A DNA stretch of 16,600 nucleotides, taken from a virus (Duplodnaviria > Heunggongvirae > Uroviricota > Caudoviricetes). Below the pieces are notes generated by a model. The model was not told the origin of the DNA. It saw only the letters and a list, made by a program, of their open reading frames with translations, and did no database searches. The position numbers were made by a program, and so were the translations under genes. Below are positions 4,238 through 12,026 of this stretch, in pieces. How positions within the stretch are numbered: the first letter of the stretch is position 1; every line of letters starts with the position of its first letter. The DNA is taken from IMG/VR virus record IMGVR_UViG_2654587792_000017; one strand, 5' to 3'.

Positions 4238-4263
4238 CCCTGTTCACACTGTAACCATCACGA

Positions 4264-4283
4264 ACCGCTGCGGCGGTTTTTTT
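4264..4283 (+). terminator. Intrinsic terminator-like hairpin (ACCGC-TGCG-GCGGT followed by T7)
   Basis: 5-bp GC-rich stem at 4264-4268 and 4273-4277, a 4-nt loop, then a T-run at 4277-4283. It follows the terL stop directly. Confidence 0.5.
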
Positions 4284-4300
4284 ATTTTCAGGAGGCTGAT

Positions 4301-6238
4301 GTGACTCTTAAACGGGCCTGTTCCCTGCTGACGGTGAAATCCTTCAGCGAGGATGAACGGGTGATCACCGGGATTGCGTCAACGCCTTCTCCGGATCGGG
4401 ATGGTGACATCCTGGAGCCGGAGGGCGCGGAGTTTGGCAGTGCGATCCCGTTTCTCTGGCAGCATGACCATTCCCGCCCGGTGGGGCAGTGTACGGTACG
4501 CCGGGTCAGCGAAGGGCTGGAAATCACGGCAACACTGGTGAAGCCCGTACCGGATATGCCGTCGCAACTGGCTGCCCGGCTGGATGAGGTCTGGGCGGCC
4601 ATTAAGACCGGGCTGGTCAGGGGGCTGTCCGTGGGCTTCCGTCCCCATGAATACACCTTTCTGGACGGAGGCGGACTGCATTTTCTGCGCTGGGAACTGA
4701 TGGAGGTGTCTGCCGTCACCGTGCCCGCGAATGCGGAATGCACCATCCGGACCATTAAATCTTACGACCGCCCGTTTTCTGCCGCGTCCGGCAACCGGAA
4801 ACCGGTGGTGAAAATCGCATCTTCTGCCGGCGCTTCGGCACAGTCAATAACCTCTTTTCATAAGGAAAAGTCAGCAATGAATACTGGTGAACAGATTAAA
4901 AGTTTTGAAAACAAGCGTGCGGCGCTGGCAGCCTCCCTTGAGGAGATCATGAACAAAGCCGCAGAGGAAGGCCGCACACTGGATGTGGAAGAGGAAGAGC
5001 ACTACGACAACACCGCAGCGGAAATCCGTCAGGTGGATGCGCACCTGAAGCGTCTGCGTGAACTGGAAACCAGTAAGGCCGCCACGGCACAGCCGGTGAA
5101 ACAGGCCGGTAACGGGAATGTGGCCACGGTGGCTTCAGCGCCGGTGATCCGTGTTGAGCAGAAACTGGAGAAGGGGATTGGTTTCGCCCGCTTTGCCAAA
5201 TCACTGGCTGCGGCTAAAGGCGTCCGATCTGAAGCCCTGGAAGTGGCCCGTCGTCAGTATCCGGATGACAGTCGTCTGCATCATGTCCTGAAATCGGCAG
5301 TGGGCGCGGGGACCACCACGGATCCGCAGTGGGCAGGCAGCCTGTCTGAATATCAGGAATACGCACAGGACTTTATTGATTACCTGCGTCCGCAGACCAT
5401 TATCGGGCGATTTGGTCAGGGCGGGATCCCTGCACTTCGTCAGGTGCCGTTCAATATCCGTGTGCACGCCCAGGTGTCCGGCGGTGCTGCCGGCTGGGTG
5501 GGTGAGGGTAAGGCAAAACCCCTGACGAAGTTTGATTTTGAATCCATCACCTTCAGTCATGCGAAGGTGTCGGCCATTGCGGTACTGACGGAAGAATTGA
5601 TCCGTTTTTCCAGTCCGGCTGCTGATGCACTGGTCCGTAATGCGCTGGCGGAAGCGGTGGTGGCGCGTCTGGATACAGACTTTGTGGACCCGAAAAAAGC
5701 CGCAGTGGCAGATGTCTCCCCGGCGTCCATCACCCATGATGTGAAGGGCACGGCATCAACCGGTAACCCGGATGCGGATGCAGAGGCTGCGTTTGGACAG
5801 TTTGTGGCAGCAAACCTGCAGCCCACCGGTGCGGTCTGGCTGATGTCCAGCACCAATGCCCTGGCACTGTCCATGCGTAAAAATGCGCTGGGTCAGAAGG
5901 AATACCCGGACATGACCCTGCTGGGTGGCTCCTTCCAGGGGCTGCCGGTGATTGTCTCCCAGTACGTGGGTGACCAGCTGGTGCTGGTGAATGCCCCGGA
6001 TATTTATCTGGCGGATGACGGAGGCGTGGCAGTGGATATGTCCCGCGAGGCATCACTGGAAATGCAGTCTGAGCCGACCGGCGACAGTACCACGCCGTCC
6101 CCGGTGGAGCTGGTTTCCATGTTCCAGACAGGCAGCGTGGCCATCCGTGCGGAGCGCTGGATCAACTGGCGTCGTCGCCGTACCGCGGCGGTGGCGGTGA
6201 TCACCGGAGTGAACTACGGCAGTGCGTCCGGCGGCTGA
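4301..6238 (+). CDS. Prohead protease / scaffold / major capsid protein fusion (HK97-fold)
   Basis: 645 aa, GTG start with CAGGAGG Shine-Dalgarno. Residues ~1-160 carry HK97 gp4-type prohead protease motifs (GIASTPSPDRDGD, WQHDHSRPVGQ, GLSVGFRP, LMEVSAVTVPAN). Residues ~190-260 are charged and coiled-coil-like (delta/scaffold-like). The C-terminal ~380 aa look like an HK97-type major capsid protein. No stop codon separates the protease from the capsid part. Confidence 0.85.
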   Translation: MTLKRACSLLTVKSFSEDERVITGIASTPSPDRDGDILEPEGAEFGSAIPFLWQHDHSRPVGQCTVRRVSEGLEITATLVKPVPDMPSQLAARLDEVWAAIKTGLVRGLSVGFRPHEYTFLDGGGLHFLRWELMEVSAVTVPANAECTIRTIKSYDRPFSAASGNRKPVVKIASSAGASAQSITSFHKEKSAMNTGEQIKSFENKRAALAASLEEIMNKAAEEGRTLDVEEEEHYDNTAAEIRQVDAHLKRLRELETSKAATAQPVKQAGNGNVATVASAPVIRVEQKLEKGIGFARFAKSLAAAKGVRSEALEVARRQYPDDSRLHHVLKSAVGAGTTTDPQWAGSLSEYQEYAQDFIDYLRPQTIIGRFGQGGIPALRQVPFNIRVHAQVSGGAAGWVGEGKAKPLTKFDFESITFSHAKVSAIAVLTEELIRFSSPAADALVRNALAEAVVARLDTDFVDPKKAAVADVSPASITHDVKGTASTGNPDADAEAAFGQFVAANLQPTGAVWLMSSTNALALSMRKNALGQKEYPDMTLLGGSFQGLPVIVSQYVGDQLVLVNAPDIYLADDGGVAVDMSREASLEMQSEPTGDSTTPSPVELVSMFQTGSVAIRAERWINWRRRRTAAVAVITGVNYGSASGG

Positions 6239-6254
6239 GTCTGATAAGGAGGAC

Positions 6255-6272
6255 GGGAGGCGTGCGCCTCCC
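6255..6272 (+). other. Perfect 8-bp GC-rich inverted repeat (GGGAGGCG-TG-CGCCTCCC) directly after the capsid stop
   Basis: Direct reading. It is preceded by a strong Shine-Dalgarno-like TAAGGAGG at 6245-6252 and has no T-run after it, so it looks like an RNA-stabilising or translational-control hairpin rather than a terminator. Confidence 0.35.
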
Positions 6273-6282
6273 GTAACAGGTC

Positions 6283-10568: not shown

Positions 10569-11285
10569 ATGTCTGCTTTGTATGAACGCTCACAGCTGAC
10601 GCAGGTGATGATTTCATCTGCCCCGGCGACTGCTGAAACTATGGATAAGGCGGAATATCTGCGCCTGGACTGCACCATCAAGGAAGTCCAGTTCACCGCC
10701 GGTCAGAAACAGGATATTGATGTGACCACGCTCTGCTCCACAGAGCAGGAGAACATCAACGGTCTGGGGGCGTCGTCTGAGATTTCCATGTCGGGTAATT
10801 TTTATCTGAATCAGGCCCAGAACGCCCTGCGTGATGCCTATGACAATGACGCGTTGTATGCGTTTAAGGTGCTGTTTCCGTCCGGTAAGGGCTTTAAGTT
10901 CCTGGCGGAAGTGCGTCAGCACACCTGGTCATCCGGTACCAACGGCGTGGTGGCAGCAACGTTTTCACTGCGTATGAAAGGCAAACCGGTGTCCTTTGTG
11001 GTACCGCTGGCGTTTGTGAAAAATCTGGATAAAACACTTACCGTGAATACAGGTGCGCTGCTGACAATGTCAGTCAGTGCCAACGGGGGAACGCCGCCGT
11101 ATAAATACGCCTGGAAGAAGGATGGTCAGCCGGTTGACGGGCAGACGACAGACACCTTCAGTAAGCCAGGTGCGCAGTCCGCTGATGCGGGGAAATATAC
11201 CTGCGTGGTGACCGATTCGGCAGAGAAAGCACAGAGTGTGACGTCTGTTGAATGCACCGTGACAGTGAGCGCAGCCGCCGGATAA
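10569..11285 (+). CDS. Major tail protein with C-terminal Ig-like domain
   Basis: 238 aa, AGGAGG Shine-Dalgarno. The C-terminal ~85 aa carry an Ig-like signature (PPYKYAWKKDGQPVDG...DAGKYTCVVTDSA). Its position immediately before the chaperone/frameshift pair and the tape measure gene fits a siphovirus major tail protein. Confidence 0.8.
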   Translation: MSALYERSQLTQVMISSAPATAETMDKAEYLRLDCTIKEVQFTAGQKQDIDVTTLCSTEQENINGLGASSEISMSGNFYLNQAQNALRDAYDNDALYAFKVLFPSGKGFKFLAEVRQHTWSSGTNGVVAATFSLRMKGKPVSFVVPLAFVKNLDKTLTVNTGALLTMSVSANGGTPPYKYAWKKDGQPVDGQTTDTFSKPGAQSADAGKYTCVVTDSAEKAQSVTSVECTVTVSAAAG

Positions 11286-11299
11286 GGGGATGGGTCATC

Positions 11300-11674
11300 A
11301 TGAAAAAGGATCTGAAAACGCTGGCGCTGGCCAGACTGTCAGGGTTTCGTCATAAAACGGTGAAGGTGCCGGAATGGGGTAATGTCAGCGTGGTGCTGCG
11401 GGAGCCTTCGGCAGAGGCCTGGTATCTGTGGCAGGAAGTGCTCAATGGTGATGGAGAGGATGACGATACCCTGTCGGTGGTGGCGAAAACCCGCCGTAAC
11501 TTGGAAGCGGATGTGACGCTGTTCTGCGATGTCCTGTGTGATACTGACCTGCAACGGGTGTTCACTCCGGACGACCGTGAGCAGGTGCTGGCCGTCTATG
11601 GTCCGGTACATGCCCGGTTGCTGCGTCAGGCACTGGAACTGATCGCTGATGCAGAGTCGGCCAGAAAAAAGTAG
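11300..11674 (+). CDS. Tail assembly chaperone (lambda gpG-like)
   Basis: 124 aa from ATG 11300 with AAGGGGA Shine-Dalgarno (the listed ORF begins at 11252 but overlaps the upstream gene). Acidic protein directly upstream of the tape measure gene. It ends with the slippery heptamer A-AAA-AAG followed by TAG. Confidence 0.8.
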   Translation: MKKDLKTLALARLSGFRHKTVKVPEWGNVSVVLREPSAEAWYLWQEVLNGDGEDDDTLSVVAKTRRNLEADVTLFCDVLCDTDLQRVFTPDDREQVLAVYGPVHARLLRQALELIADAESARKK

Positions 11675-11979
11675 CCCGCCCGGAAATTCGATTTCTGATG
11701 CGACTTGCGCTCCGTCTGGGGCGCACCTTATCCGAACTGCGGCACAGCCTGAGTGCGAGCGAGGCGATGATGTGGATGGAGTTTGACAGGGTGTCCCCGC
11801 TGGGTGATGAGCGCGGGGATATCCGTAATGCACAGATCGTGAAAGCGGTTTTCGGGGCACAGGGGATGAATGTTGCACTGAAGGACGCCATGCTCTGCTG
11901 GGGCGAGGATGAGGATAAGCCGGAGGTGGATCCGTTTGCGGCGCTGGAAGACGCGCTGAGCTTTGCAGCACAGTCATGA
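11300..11979 (+). CDS. Tail assembly chaperone frameshift fusion (lambda gpGT-like), made by -1 frameshift at 11665-11671
   Basis: After a -1 slip the frame reads K-K-V-A-R-P-E-I-R-F-L-M-R-L... into the 93-aa ORF 11698..11979. That ORF has no Shine-Dalgarno of its own and ends just before the tape measure gene. The arrangement matches the conserved G/GT pair of long-tailed phages. Confidence 0.75.
11665..11671 (+). promoter_or_regulatory. Programmed -1 ribosomal frameshift slippery site A-AAA-AAG
   Basis: Heptamer A AAA AAG at 11665-11671, immediately before the chaperone stop (TAG 11672-11674). The -1 frame is open from here and continues into ORF 11698..11979. Confidence 0.8.
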
Positions 11980-11988
11980 ATGATGAGA

Positions 11989-12008
11989 ACCGCTGAGGCG
12001 GTTTTTTT
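11989..12008 (+). terminator. Intrinsic terminator-like hairpin (ACCGC-TGAG-GCGGT followed by T7), second copy of the element at 4261-4284
   Basis: 5-bp stem, 4-nt loop and T-run at 12002-12008. The sequence GAACCGCTGAGGCGGTTTTTTTA matches the hairpin after terL at 22 of 23 positions. Confidence 0.5.
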
Positions 12009-12026
12009 ACGCCCGGAGAAAGGTGA

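What the first reader, a model, noticed from the sequence alone, without database searches (positions are those of the whole stretch)
4261..12009. The same 23-bp terminator-like hairpin element occurs twice inside the late operon
GAACCGCTGCGGCGGTTTTTTTA (after terL, 4261-4284) and GAACCGCTGAGGCGGTTTTTTTA (after the G/GT pair, 11986-12009) match at 22 of 23 positions, the one difference being in the loop. Both sit in short intergenic gaps just before a strong Shine-Dalgarno and a highly expressed structural gene (capsid, tape measure). A third hairpin of different sequence (10532-10552) precedes the major tail gene. In a lambdoid late operon such terminators would be read through under antitermination, so they may act as 3' stabilisers of processed transcripts or as expression punctuation. 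The near-identity suggests a reused module rather than convergence.
Basis: seen in the sequence. Interest (0 to 1): 0.45.

Follow-up and report, generated by a model that had tools for sequence, protein, structure and literature searches.

The report
Ordinary terminator hairpins punctuating a prophage late operon
The two near-identical 23-base sequences are real, but they are stereotyped transcription-terminator hairpins that sit at fixed gene junctions in the late operon of a very common E. coli prophage family, a kind of feature already annotated in phage HK97, and not copies of a mobile or reused element.

Summary
GAACCGCTGCGGCGGTTTTTTTA lies at 4262-4284 and GAACCGCTGAGGCGGTTTTTTTA at 11987-12009, 22/23 identical. 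A third hairpin lies at 10532-10552.

The window is the late operon of a Pankowvirus-like lambdoid prophage (phage 2851, Sakai Sp12 type). Antiterminator Q lies upstream on the same strand in those relatives.

Each hairpin is a short G+C stem with a U-run, fused to the U-rich spacer, Shine-Dalgarno and start codon of the next gene. The junctions are terL|protease-capsid, tail-terminator|major tail and T|tape measure.

Each junction has its own positional counterparts in distant prophages (Citrobacter, Enterobacter, Morganella, Pseudomonas). HK97's record already annotates such "putative terminators", and lambda has similar hairpins around its capsid gene.

The exact 23-mer occurs in only these two contexts in 118 viral-contig matches. 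Among 43 comparable hairpins from other species, 2.2% of pairs are already at least 22/23 identical. Convergence in a narrow sequence space therefore explains the near-identity; module reuse is not needed.

Most likely they are Q-overridable intrinsic terminators that stop unauthorised transcription. Any effect on mRNA stability or translation is inferred. No transcript data could be consulted. This is an ordinary feature of low novelty.

The parts
2576..4237 (+). Large terminase gene (terL), the gene upstream of site 1
   Evidence: PHROG terminase large subunit, E = 2.8e-153. Its stop codon is 24 nt before the hairpin.
4262..4284 (+). Site 1 hairpin. Stem GAACCGC/GCGGTTT, loop TGCG (a C(UNCG)G-type tetraloop), T7 run at 4277-4283.
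   Evidence: -10.8 kcal/mol. The covariance model scores it 45 bits, which is by construction. E. coli variants change only the loop, one wobble-compatible stem base and the T-run length.
4285..4303 (+). U-rich spacer, SD AGGAGG (4290-4295) and GTG start (4301) of the protease-major capsid fusion gene (4301-6238)
   Evidence: 4273-4299 is 89% identical to the equivalent stretch at site 3 (family D13). A TCGTTTCTGGAG spacer recurs in the Citrobacter and several pseudomonad-type counterparts; the window itself has TTTTCAGGAGG there.
6253..6274 (+). Strong 9-bp G+C hairpin (loop UGCG) just after the capsid gene stop, with no T-run
   Evidence: -17.8 kcal/mol. Positional counterparts with different stems and GAAA or UUCG loops occur in L116, L151, L127, L181 and L183. 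HK97 and lambda have a hairpin at the same place.
10490..10518 (+). Weak hairpin GGTCAC-GGT-GTGACT overlapping the stop codon of the tail-terminator-like gene (10158-10502), followed by a T-rich stretch
10532..10552 (+). Site 3 hairpin CCCGC-CGCGT-GCGGG plus T6
   Evidence: Covariance model 31.9 bits, E = 1.2e-7. Counterparts: L116 CCCGC-TTCG-GCGGG and HK97 AACCCGCC-AGAT-GGCGGGTT, which its GenBank record annotates as 'putative terminator'.
10553..10571 (+). U/A-rich spacer, SD AGGAGG (10559-10564) and ATG (10569) of the major tail gene (10569-11285)
11698..11979 (+). T segment of the G/GT tail-chaperone pair, the gene upstream of site 2. Its stop codon is 11977-11979.
   Evidence: PHROG tail protein families 337 and 14766. 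Sequence.
11985..12009 (+). Site 2 hairpin. Core AACCGC-TGAG-GCGGTT, extendable to 9 pairs from 11985. T7 run at 12002-12008.
   Evidence: Covariance model 25.7 bits, E = 6.3e-6. Counterparts directly before the tape-measure SD in about 13 of 15 distant relatives and in HK97. A variant, AACCTGC-TGTG-GCAGGTT, occurs in another E. coli prophage.
12010..12029 (+). Spacer ACGCCC, SD GGAG (12015-12018) and ATG (12027) of the tape-measure gene (12027-15269)
   Evidence: The flank is almost the same in a Pseudomonas asturiensis prophage: TTTTTTTATGCCTGGAGAAAAGTGAATG there, TTTTTTTACGCCCGGAGAAAGGTGAATG here.

Best explanation
**What the elements are.** The three elements are canonical short intrinsic (Rho-independent) terminator hairpins. 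Each is fused to the translation-initiation region of the next gene. They sit at three fixed junctions of a Q-antiterminated late operon: terL|protease-capsid, tail-terminator|major tail, and T|tape measure.

**How they most likely work.**
- RNA polymerase that has not been loaded with Q would terminate at them. Such polymerase includes leak-through from the late promoter in a lysogen, spurious starts inside the 25-kb operon, and polymerase from promoters of inserted 'moron' genes. Capsid, tail-tube and tape-measure genes with strong ribosome-binding sites would then stay silent in the prophage.
- Q-modified polymerase reads through them during lytic growth.
- Once made, the hairpins remain in the mRNA. 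There they probably also mark segment boundaries: the capsid cistron is bracketed by hairpins, and so is the V-G-T unit.

**Origin of the near-identity.** Site 1 and site 2 resemble each other because such phage terminators occupy a very narrow sequence space (A[A/C]CCGC, a UNCG-type loop, GCGG[G/U]U, then a U-run). It is not evidence of copying.

**Shown versus inferred.**
- Shown here: the anatomy, the position, the positional conservation, the strand bias, and the preference for these gene classes.
- Inferred: termination itself, read-through by Q, and any effect on RNA stability or translation.
For: **Anatomy**
- G+C stems of 5-9 pairs, tetra- or pentaloops and T6-T7 runs lie in intergenic gaps on the sense strand.
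- A d'Aubenton-Carafa-type terminator score, with the formula recalled from memory, is positive for site 1 (+24) and site 3 (+20) and borderline for site 2 (-7).

**Operon context**
- In phage 2851 and Sakai Sp12, Q, the lysis genes, terminase, head and tail genes are co-oriented.
- Phage 2851 has further modules of the same kind after an antirepressor-like insert before gene K, before J, and after lom. Polymerase must pass at least six of them to express the tail fibres.

**Conservation at each junction**
- All 7 genome loci sharing the terL-to-capsid gene order have a hairpin plus U-rich tract there. So do many viral contigs.
- 93% of pair cells form standard pairs, against 86% in shuffles (0 of 500 shuffles reach it), and two pairs change on both sides.
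- About 13 of 15 distant tape-measure genes are preceded by such a hairpin.

**Census with a covariance model built from site-1 counterparts**
- In the window it finds only sites 1, 3 and 2.
- In 1.55 Mb of 81 loci it finds 70 hits, 68 of them on the late-operon strand.
- Of 56 downstream ORFs, at least 13 are major tail, 11 major head and 8 tape measure.

**Precedent**
- The HK97 record annotates 'putative terminator' at the equivalent junctions.
- Lambda has hairpins before and after E and before J.
- PMC8022706 states that such intra-operon terminators occur, that their roles are unknown, and proposes partial termination or stopping spurious non-antiterminated transcription.
- PMC8955417 describes the same logic for conjugation operons with many internal terminators plus processive antitermination.

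**Moron link**
- HK97 gene 15, the first described moron, lies in the T|tape-measure slot.
- L116 and L182 carry an extra ORF there, followed by the hairpin.
Against: - No transcript 3'-end or abundance data could be consulted. The Sakai Term-seq supplement is not held.
- There are only three U-run hairpins in 16.6 kb, so insulation would be coarse.
- One clade of relatives lacks the terL|capsid hairpin altogether. Lambda and Gifsy-1 have none at U|V or T|H. The elements are therefore dispensable.
- Site 2 scores as a borderline terminator.
- The strong preference for capsid, major tail and tape-measure junctions is not predicted by insulation alone. It fits RNA-level punctuation at least as well.
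- The covariance model includes the SD and start codon, so its strand bias and gene association are partly built in. Seven of the 11 capsid hits are by construction.
Confidence: 0.6

Rival explanations
1. The main function is post-transcriptional punctuation. After endonucleolytic cleavage in the U-rich spacers, the hairpins protect 3' ends. This yields stable sub-transcripts for the most needed products (the capsid cistron and the V-G-T unit) and a step-down before the tape-measure and tail-tip genes.
For: - The capsid gene is bracketed by the site 1 hairpin and a 9-bp hairpin without a U-run. The V-G-T unit is bracketed by sites 3 and 2.
- The post-capsid hairpin is conserved with different stems and is also present in HK97 and lambda.
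- Loops are mostly extra-stable UNCG or GNRA types.
- Modules are enriched at capsid, major tail and tape-measure junctions.
Against: - A U-run directly after the stem is kept at sites 1-3 in enteric relatives. A block to exonucleases does not need one.
- No processing or half-life data are available.
- In lambda, relative late-gene expression is attributed mainly to translation initiation (recalled from Sampson et al. 1988, not checked here).
Confidence: 0.25
2. The hairpin plus U-tract is chiefly a translation-initiation device. The hairpin insulates the ribosome-binding site from upstream structure, and the U-rich spacer acts as an enhancer (ribosomal protein S1 binding) for heavily translated genes.
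For: - The distance from stem to SD is fixed at about 11-12 nt.
- Spacer sequences are conserved from Citrobacter to Pseudomonas while flanking proteins are only about 50% identical.
- Sites 1 and 3 share TTTTTTATT[T/A]TCAGGAGGC[T/A]GA.
- Morganella locus L194 has the identical 15-mer ACAGGAGTTGTTATG at both the capsid and tape-measure starts.
Against: - The tape-measure protein is a low-copy product (established knowledge for lambda), yet it has the module in most relatives.
- Tight spacing may only reflect genome compaction.
- Many similar hairpins in the census are not followed by an SD.
Confidence: 0.1
3. The two 23-mers share recent common descent. One site was copied onto the other by short-patch conversion, or the module was duplicated.
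For: - The match is 22/23 including the flanking G and A.
- The AACCGC stem is a minority type (2 of 55).
- In E. coli, site 1 has the site-2-type stem, whereas the Citrobacter and Enterobacter site 1 have ACCCGC/GCCCGC.
- In Morganella L194, sites 1 and 2 are also the most alike pair.
Against: - There is no flanking homology between the two sites.
- The 23-mer occurs in only two contexts among 118 matches and has no other copy in the phage 2851 genome.
- One compensatory pair plus one loop change converts the Citrobacter site 1 into the window's.
- 2.2% of unrelated hairpin pairs are at least 22/23 identical, with several 23/23 pairs across species and junctions.
- There is no general excess of within-genome similarity (p = 0.46). 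The window's pairs lie at about the 93rd percentile of between-genome pairs.
Confidence: 0.1
4. Site 2 is a leftover terminator of a lost moron in the T|tape-measure slot and has no present function.
For: - HK97 gene 15, L116 and L182 carry an inserted gene followed by the hairpin in exactly this slot.
- Hairpins of the same type follow the lom gene and an antirepressor-like insert in phage 2851.
Against: - The hairpin is present without any insert in about 2,900 E. coli prophage copies and in most distant relatives.
- Its 3' flank is conserved from E. coli to Pseudomonas, which argues for maintenance by selection.
Confidence: 0.08
5. The hairpins are the terminators of small regulatory RNAs, either independent or 3'-derived and Hfq-binding, like other prophage sRNAs of enterohaemorrhagic E. 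coli.
For: - A hairpin plus a U-tail is the usual Hfq-binding 3' module.
- There are sub-threshold Rfam matches to isrK at site 2 (27.1 bits, E = 3e-4 to 2e-3) and site 1 (15.4 bits).
Against: - The isrK gathering score is 50 bits, and the alignment is carried mostly by the terminator.
- By recollection of the literature, isrK lies between STM2616 and STM2617 in Gifsy-1. In the Gifsy-1 record that interval is just downstream of Q, not in the tail genes. The Gifsy-1 locus was not scanned with Rfam.
- No promoter-like site lies upstream on the + strand.
- No Rfam hit reaches gathering score.
- None of the 63 orphan Hfq-binding peaks listed for Sakai falls at these sites in Sp12.
- The HnrS sRNA of Sp12 lies elsewhere, and that segment is replaced in the window.
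Confidence: 0.03

Closest known systems
'Putative terminators' annotated inside the HK97 late operon (GenBank NC_002167, Juhala et al. 2000)
   Same: - G+C hairpins with T-runs lie in short gaps on the sense strand at the same junctions: before the major tail gene, before the tape-measure gene and after the capsid gene.
- The major-tail junction is alignable from hairpin through SD to ATGTCT.
   Different: - The head-gene order differs. HK97 has portal, protease and capsid as separate genes, and its upstream head hairpin is at portal|protease.
- HK97 has the gene 15 moron before the tape-measure hairpin, whereas the window has none.
- The stems differ in sequence.
Lambda late-operon hairpins (D|E, E|FI, I|J)
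   Same: - There is a hairpin plus U7 directly before the capsid gene E, a C(UUCG)G hairpin directly after it, and a hairpin before J.
- The operon depends on Q antitermination (established knowledge).
   Different: Lambda has no gap or hairpin at U|V, and T overlaps H.
Intra-operon terminators of P22-like phages (phage L, PMC8022706)
   Same: A predicted Rho-independent terminator lies inside a single-promoter, antiterminated late operon at the end of the procapsid module. The authors say the roles are unknown and suggest partial termination or blocking of non-antiterminated transcription.
   Different: The virion type and gene order differ. No sequence relationship was tested.
Multi-terminator operons with processive antitermination (pLS20 conAn system, PMC8955417)
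   Same: The logic is the same. Internal intrinsic terminators stop polymerase that did not start at the authorised promoter, and modified polymerase reads through.
   Different: It is a Gram-positive conjugation operon with more than 20 terminators and a protein-plus-RNA antiterminator. Here there are three in 16.6 kb and a Q-type protein.
Moron terminators (lambda lom, HK97 gene 15)
   Same: The hairpin type is the same. In relatives an inserted gene sits immediately upstream of the site-2 hairpin. Phage 2851 has such hairpins after lom and after an antirepressor-like insert.
   Different: In the window no inserted gene precedes any of the three hairpins. Only 7 nt separate the T stop codon from the 23-mer at site 2.
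C(UNCG)G extra-stable tetraloop hairpins of phage intercistronic regions (Tuerk et al. 1988, recalled from memory)
   Same: Site 1 (UGCG or UCCG), the post-capsid hairpin (UGCG) and many counterparts (UUCG, UCCG, UACG) have UNCG loops. At site 1 the loop is closed by C-G. TTCG and TCCG dominate the census.
   Different: Site 2 has UGAG and site 3 a 5-nt loop. The T4 examples are in a lytic phage without Q-type control.

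Membership tests
Intrinsic (Rho-independent) terminator | G+C-rich stem-loop on the transcribed strand | tested here: met
   Stems of 5-9 pairs with 4-5 G-C pairs. Energies are -8.5 to -10.8 kcal/mol.
Intrinsic (Rho-independent) terminator | Run of U directly 3' of the stem | tested here: met
   T7, T7 and T6. The run is kept at 6-8 T in E. coli variants. It is weaker and interrupted in Pseudomonas-type relatives.
Intrinsic (Rho-independent) terminator | Transcripts actually end there with unmodified RNA polymerase | not testable with these tools
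   No transcript data are held. The score from a remembered formula is positive for sites 1 and 3 and borderline for site 2.
Intra-operon terminators of Q-antiterminated lambdoid late operons (HK97 type) | Located inside the late operon, downstream of Q and the late promoter, on the same strand | tested here: met
   Gene order in phage 2851 and Sakai Sp12, which are 94-98% identical to the window
Intra-operon terminators of Q-antiterminated lambdoid late operons (HK97 type) | Positional equivalence to the annotated HK97 elements | tested here: met
   Equivalent hairpins lie before the major tail gene, before the tape-measure gene and after the capsid gene.
Intra-operon terminators of Q-antiterminated lambdoid late operons (HK97 type) | Read through by Q-modified polymerase | not testable with these tools
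   Inferred only. Essential tail genes lie downstream of all of them.
Moron (inserted transcription unit with its own promoter and terminator) | An extra gene between two genes that are adjacent in related phages, followed by the terminator | tested here: not met
   No ORF lies between the T stop codon and the hairpin; the gap is 7 nt to the 23-mer. The feature is met in relatives L116 and L182 and in HK97.
Dispersed repeat or mobile element (REP/MITE-like) | Many copies in varied genomic contexts | tested here: not met
   All 118 exact matches in viral contigs fall in two contexts. Phage 2851 has two copies and no other within 4 mismatches.
Hfq-binding sRNA gene (isrK, HnrS/EcOnc type) | Match to a curated RNA family, or an own promoter with a discrete short RNA | tested here: not met
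   No Rfam hit reaches gathering score. isrK scores 27 and 15 bits against a cut-off of 50. No + strand promoter-like site was found. No listed Hfq peak falls at these sites in Sp12.
RNase III processing site (T7 type) | Long duplex of about 20 bp, often with an internal loop | tested here: not met
   The stems are only 5-9 pairs.

The most novel reading that the evidence does not exclude
The composite element is a C(UNCG)G-type hairpin, a U-tract, a spacer of fixed length and an SD. It recurs before capsid, major-tail and tape-measure genes from E. coli to Pseudomonas. It could be a dedicated RNA-level device, and not merely a fail-safe terminator, that carves the long late transcript into separately stabilised and separately translated units and so sets virion protein ratios. 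That would answer the stated open question of what intra-operon terminators in phage late operons are for.
Probability: 0.2. Interest if true: 0.5.

Novelty: new member of a known kind. Interest (0 to 1): 0.22.

Why it matters
This prophage family is present in about 23% of complete E. coli genomes, with up to 7 copies per genome, and it includes Shiga-toxin phages.

If the hairpins act as argued, they help keep capsid and tail genes silent in lysogens, and they tolerate or attract inserted cargo genes at the T|tape-measure slot.

The wider pattern is a conserved terminator-plus-ribosome-binding-site module placed preferentially before capsid, tail-tube and tape-measure genes. It gives a concrete and testable handle on a question that phage genomics papers still describe as open, namely the role of intra-operon terminators.

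For annotation, the practical point is that near-identity of two short terminators is not evidence of a repeat family.

Tried and rejected
1. **Mobile or dispersed element.** I scanned viral contigs for the 23-mer with a free loop base and found only two contexts. I also scanned the whole phage 2851 genome and found no further copy. Rejected.
2. **Recent copying between sites.** I tested this with an empirical background of 43 hairpins, a within- versus between-genome comparison and percentile placement. There was no support beyond background. Morganella locus L194 is an isolated counter-example.
3. **HnrS/EcOnc10 sRNA ('within late genes' of Sp9, Sp10 and Sp12).** I located it in Sakai Sp12 on the opposite strand, upstream of the DNase-like gene. 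That segment is replaced in the window. Unrelated.
4. **isrK.** Sub-threshold Rfam hits at both sites rest mostly on the terminator. By recollection, isrK lies between STM2616 and STM2617, an interval just downstream of Q in the Gifsy-1 record. Rejected as homology.
5. **An isrK-like RNA after gene L at the end of the window.** Nothing found.
6. **A tRNA-like stretch between terL and the hairpin in L276.** ARAGORN does not call a tRNA there.
7. **MAFFT alignment of the hairpins.** It put two sequences out of register, so pair counts understate pairing. The covariance-model alignment was used for the later comparisons.
8. **Term-seq supplement of Sy et al. 2020 and the supplement of the HnrS paper.** Neither is held, so no transcript evidence was obtained.
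9. **Mosaic breakpoints at the hairpins.** Two candidate cases turned out to be insertions of IS200C and ISEc23. They are not module exchange.

Full report
**1. What the window is**

The window is the packaging, head and tail part of a lambdoid prophage. It is 96-98% identical to long-tailed Stx-converting phages such as phage 2851 (Pankowvirus), YYZ-2008 and many Stx1a phages. It is about 95% identical to prophage Sp12 of E. coli O157:H7 Sakai.

The genes, all on the + strand, are:

| Gene | Coordinates |
|---|---|
| terS | 2040-2579 |
| terL | 2576-4237 |
| protease-major capsid fusion | 4301-6238 |
| portal | 6450-9034 (split, see section 8) |
| head-completion and tail-completion genes | up to 10502 |
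| major tail | 10569-11285 |
| chaperones G and T | up to 11979 |
| tape measure | 12027-15269 |
| M and L | following |

In phage 2851 and in Sp12, the antiterminator gene Q, tRNAs, stx or other cargo, lysis genes and all these genes are co-oriented. The region therefore belongs to a Q-dependent late operon.

**2. The observation**

- The two 23-mers are at 4262-4284 and 11987-12009, with 22 of 23 positions identical. The difference is in the loop.
- The third hairpin is at 10532-10546, with T6 to 10552.
- Each folds as predicted: -10.8, -10.8 and -8.5 kcal/mol.
- Every gap longer than 40 nt in this part of the operon holds a hairpin.
- The 3' half of site 1 plus its SD is 89% identical to the same part of site 3 (family D13).

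**3. Not a dispersed element**

- An exact scan of IMG/VR for the 23-mer with any loop base gave 118 matches, all in two contexts. Forty-five were after terL (44 with loop C, one with T) and 73 before the tape-measure gene, always with loop A.
- The 57-kb genome of phage 2851 has no other copy within four mismatches.
- The two junctions occur in 1,234 and 1,245 of 5,426 complete E. coli genomes, about 2,900 places each.
- Among E. coli-family copies, site 1 varies only in three ways: the loop (TCCG is commonest, then TGCG, TGTG, TGTCG), one wobble-compatible stem base (GGACCGC) and the T-run length (6-8).

**4. Each site has its own deep counterparts**

I took 80 loci encoding terL relatives from one genome per species.

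*terL|capsid junction*
- All seven loci with the same terL-to-capsid-fusion order have a hairpin plus U-rich tract plus SD there. They are Enterobacter, Citrobacter, Morganella, Phlomobacter, Metapseudomonas, Azorhizophilus and Halopseudomonas. Their stems and loops differ.
- More examples came from viral contigs. One clade with short gaps lacks the hairpin, so it is dispensable.
- On a 17-sequence alignment, 93% of pair cells are standard pairs against 86% in shuffles (0 of 500 shuffles reach it). Two outer pairs change on both sides, and the CCGC/GCGG core is invariant.
- The spacer TCGTTTCTGGAG is shared by the Citrobacter counterpart and several pseudomonad-type ones. The window's own spacer is TTTTCAGGAGG.

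*T|tape-measure junction*
- About 13 of 15 distant relatives have a hairpin plus T-run directly before the SD.
- The 3' flank is nearly the same in a Pseudomonas asturiensis prophage.

*Major tail junction*
- Enterobacter L116 and HK97 have alignable hairpin, spacer, SD and ATGTCT modules.

*Post-capsid hairpin*
- It is likewise conserved, with covarying stems and GAAA or UUCG loops.

**5. This is a known kind of feature**

- The HK97 GenBank record annotates 'putative terminator' inside the late operon at portal|protease, after the capsid gene, before the major tail gene, after it, and between the gene 15 moron and the tape-measure gene.
- Lambda has a hairpin plus U7 before E, a C(UUCG)G hairpin after E and a hairpin before J. 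It has none at U|V or T|H.
- The same logic is described for conjugation operons with many internal terminators and a processive antiterminator (PMC8955417).
- The T|tape-measure slot is where the first described moron, HK97 gene 15, sits (PMC3594210). Enterobacter L116 and Pseudomonas L182 carry an extra ORF there, followed by the hairpin.
- Phage 2851 has the same kind of hairpin after lom, after an antirepressor-like insert before gene K, and before J.

**6. Census**

I built a covariance model from the 17 site-1 counterparts: hairpin, U-run, spacer, SD and start.

- In the window it finds only three significant places. These are site 1 (by construction), site 3 (31.9 bits, E = 1e-7) and site 2 (25.7 bits, E = 6e-6).
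- In 1.55 Mb of 81 loci it finds 70 hits at E of 0.01 or less, and 68 are on the late-operon strand.
- Of 56 downstream ORFs, at least 13 are major tail proteins, 11 are major head proteins (7 by construction) and 8 are tape-measure proteins. That is more than half, although these three classes are roughly 3 of some 20 late genes.
- The model includes the SD and start codon, so part of the strand bias is built in.

**7. Reuse or convergence?**

- Terminator-like hairpins in these prophage regions are extremely stereotyped. Of 55 with a perfect 6-bp stem and 4-nt loop, 18 have the stem ACCCGC. Loops are mostly TTCG or TCCG. Two random members share the same stem with probability 0.125.
- Among 43 on the + strand, 2.2% of pairs are at least 22/23 identical and 8.1% at least 21/23. 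Several are 23/23 identical between unrelated species and different junctions.
- Over the whole 46-nt module, the window's site 1 versus site 2 (0.64) and site 1 versus site 3 (0.65) fall at about the 93rd percentile of between-genome pairs.
- Across 32 within-genome pairs there is no excess similarity (0.485 against 0.482, permutation p = 0.46).
- The window's site 1 differs from the Citrobacter counterpart by one compensatory C-G to A-U pair and one loop base.
- The flanks of sites 1 and 2 share nothing.

I therefore regard convergence within a narrow functional sequence space as sufficient. A short conversion event cannot be excluded. Morganella L194, where the capsid and tape-measure starts share an identical 15-mer and similar hairpins, shows that within-genome resemblance does occur occasionally.

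**8. Mechanism**

*Shown*
- Terminator anatomy on the sense strand, in non-coding gaps.
- Positional conservation with structure-preserving variation.
- Location inside a Q-controlled operon, upstream of essential genes.
- Association with inserted genes in relatives.

*Inferred*
- Unmodified polymerase terminates there. A remembered d'Aubenton-Carafa score is +24 for site 1, +20 for site 3 and -7 for site 2. It is -38 for the post-capsid hairpin, which is therefore not a terminator.
- Q-loaded polymerase reads through. The Q-lambda structural work listed (PMC9388147) describes a nozzle that prevents terminator hairpin formation at the RNA exit channel.
- The hairpins, once formed in the mRNA, bracket the capsid cistron and the V-G-T unit.

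I rank fail-safe or insulating termination first. RNA-segment stabilisation is the main rival or co-function. Translational insulation ranks third.

*Geometry*
- The site 1 hairpin and the second hairpin of the major tail gap begin 24-30 nt after the upstream stop codon, so terminating ribosomes should not melt them.
- The site 2 23-mer begins 7 nt after the T stop codon (the extended stem 5 nt after it). However, T is reached only by the minority of ribosomes that frameshift. That last point is established knowledge for lambda G/GT and is an inference here.

**9. Other leads checked**

- No Rfam family reaches its gathering score.
- Sub-threshold isrK matches at sites 2 and 1 rest mainly on the terminator. 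By recollection of the literature, isrK lies between STM2616 and STM2617. In the Gifsy-1 record that interval is just downstream of Q. I did not scan the Gifsy-1 locus with Rfam.
- The multicopy prophage sRNA HnrS (PMC13502914) lies elsewhere in Sp12, and that segment is replaced in the window.
- None of the orphan Hfq-binding peaks listed for Sakai falls at these sites in Sp12.
- Transcript 3'-end data could not be consulted.

**10. Verdict**

The terminator reading is well supported by anatomy and comparative evidence. The reused-module reading is not supported. The feature belongs to a known, if functionally unresolved, class, so its novelty is low. The wider pattern is of modest interest because it offers a testable handle on an acknowledged open question.

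Noticed in passing
window 6450-9034 (around 7792): The portal gene is split into two ORFs (6450-7814 and 7811-9034), both matching one 859-aa portal family. Relative to phage 2851 there is a 1-nt deletion near 7792. RefSeq also flags a 'frameshifted' portal in another strain. This points to a defective prophage or a sequencing error. A programmed frameshift was not examined.
   Followed up: partly
window 7976-8580: Three tandem copies of a 162-nt unit (88-91% identical) lie inside the C-terminal part of the portal gene (family D1).
   Followed up: no
window 6253-6274: A strong 9-bp G+C hairpin with a UGCG loop and no T-run lies directly after the capsid gene. It is conserved with different stems in distant relatives and is present in HK97 and lambda. 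It may protect the 3' end of capsid mRNA.
   Followed up: partly
window 1748-2040: The gap upstream of terS holds a G9 run, a C7 run and several copies of a GTTAAC-containing motif (ATGTTAACTGGC, AATGTTAAC). This may be the cos or terminase-binding region.
   Followed up: no
window 534-1212, compared with L335 8176-8447: Sakai Sp12 carries the HnrS (EcOnc10) sRNA locus here, on the opposite strand. The window has a different segment of about 680 nt that includes ORF 668-1009.
   Followed up: partly
L330 1760-2500 (E. coli 14EC017) and L331 about 2400-2510 (E. coli Z1322HEC0009): In 14EC017, IS200C is inserted immediately after the T-run of the site-2 hairpin. There the hairpin is the variant AACCTGC-TGTG-GCAGGTT. 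In Z1322HEC0009, ISEc23 is inserted just upstream of the site-1 hairpin and removes terL.
   Followed up: partly
L194 11665-11704 and 19232-19272 (Morganella morganii prophage): The capsid and tape-measure starts share an identical 15-mer, ACAGGAGTTGTTATG. Each is preceded by a GCCCCG-type hairpin and a T-run. These are the only two copies of the 15-mer in the locus.
   Followed up: partly
window 15464-15483: A terminator-like hairpin, GGCATGGT-GGTT-ACCGTGCC followed by TTTTTG, lies inside the coding sequence of gene M. It is probably a chance match.
   Followed up: no
L276 about 1350-1500 and L296 about 1100-1500: In L276, an extra stretch of about 100 nt with tRNA-like sequence lies between terL and the hairpin, but ARAGORN calls no tRNA. 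In L296, the hairpin follows terL directly and an extra ORF of about 300 nt precedes the capsid gene.
   Followed up: partly
window 11941-12008 and 4198-4283: There are sub-threshold Rfam matches to isrK (27.1 and 15.4 bits, against a gathering score of 50). isrK is recalled as the short late-leader RNA of Gifsy-1. The matches are driven mainly by the terminator.
   Followed up: yes
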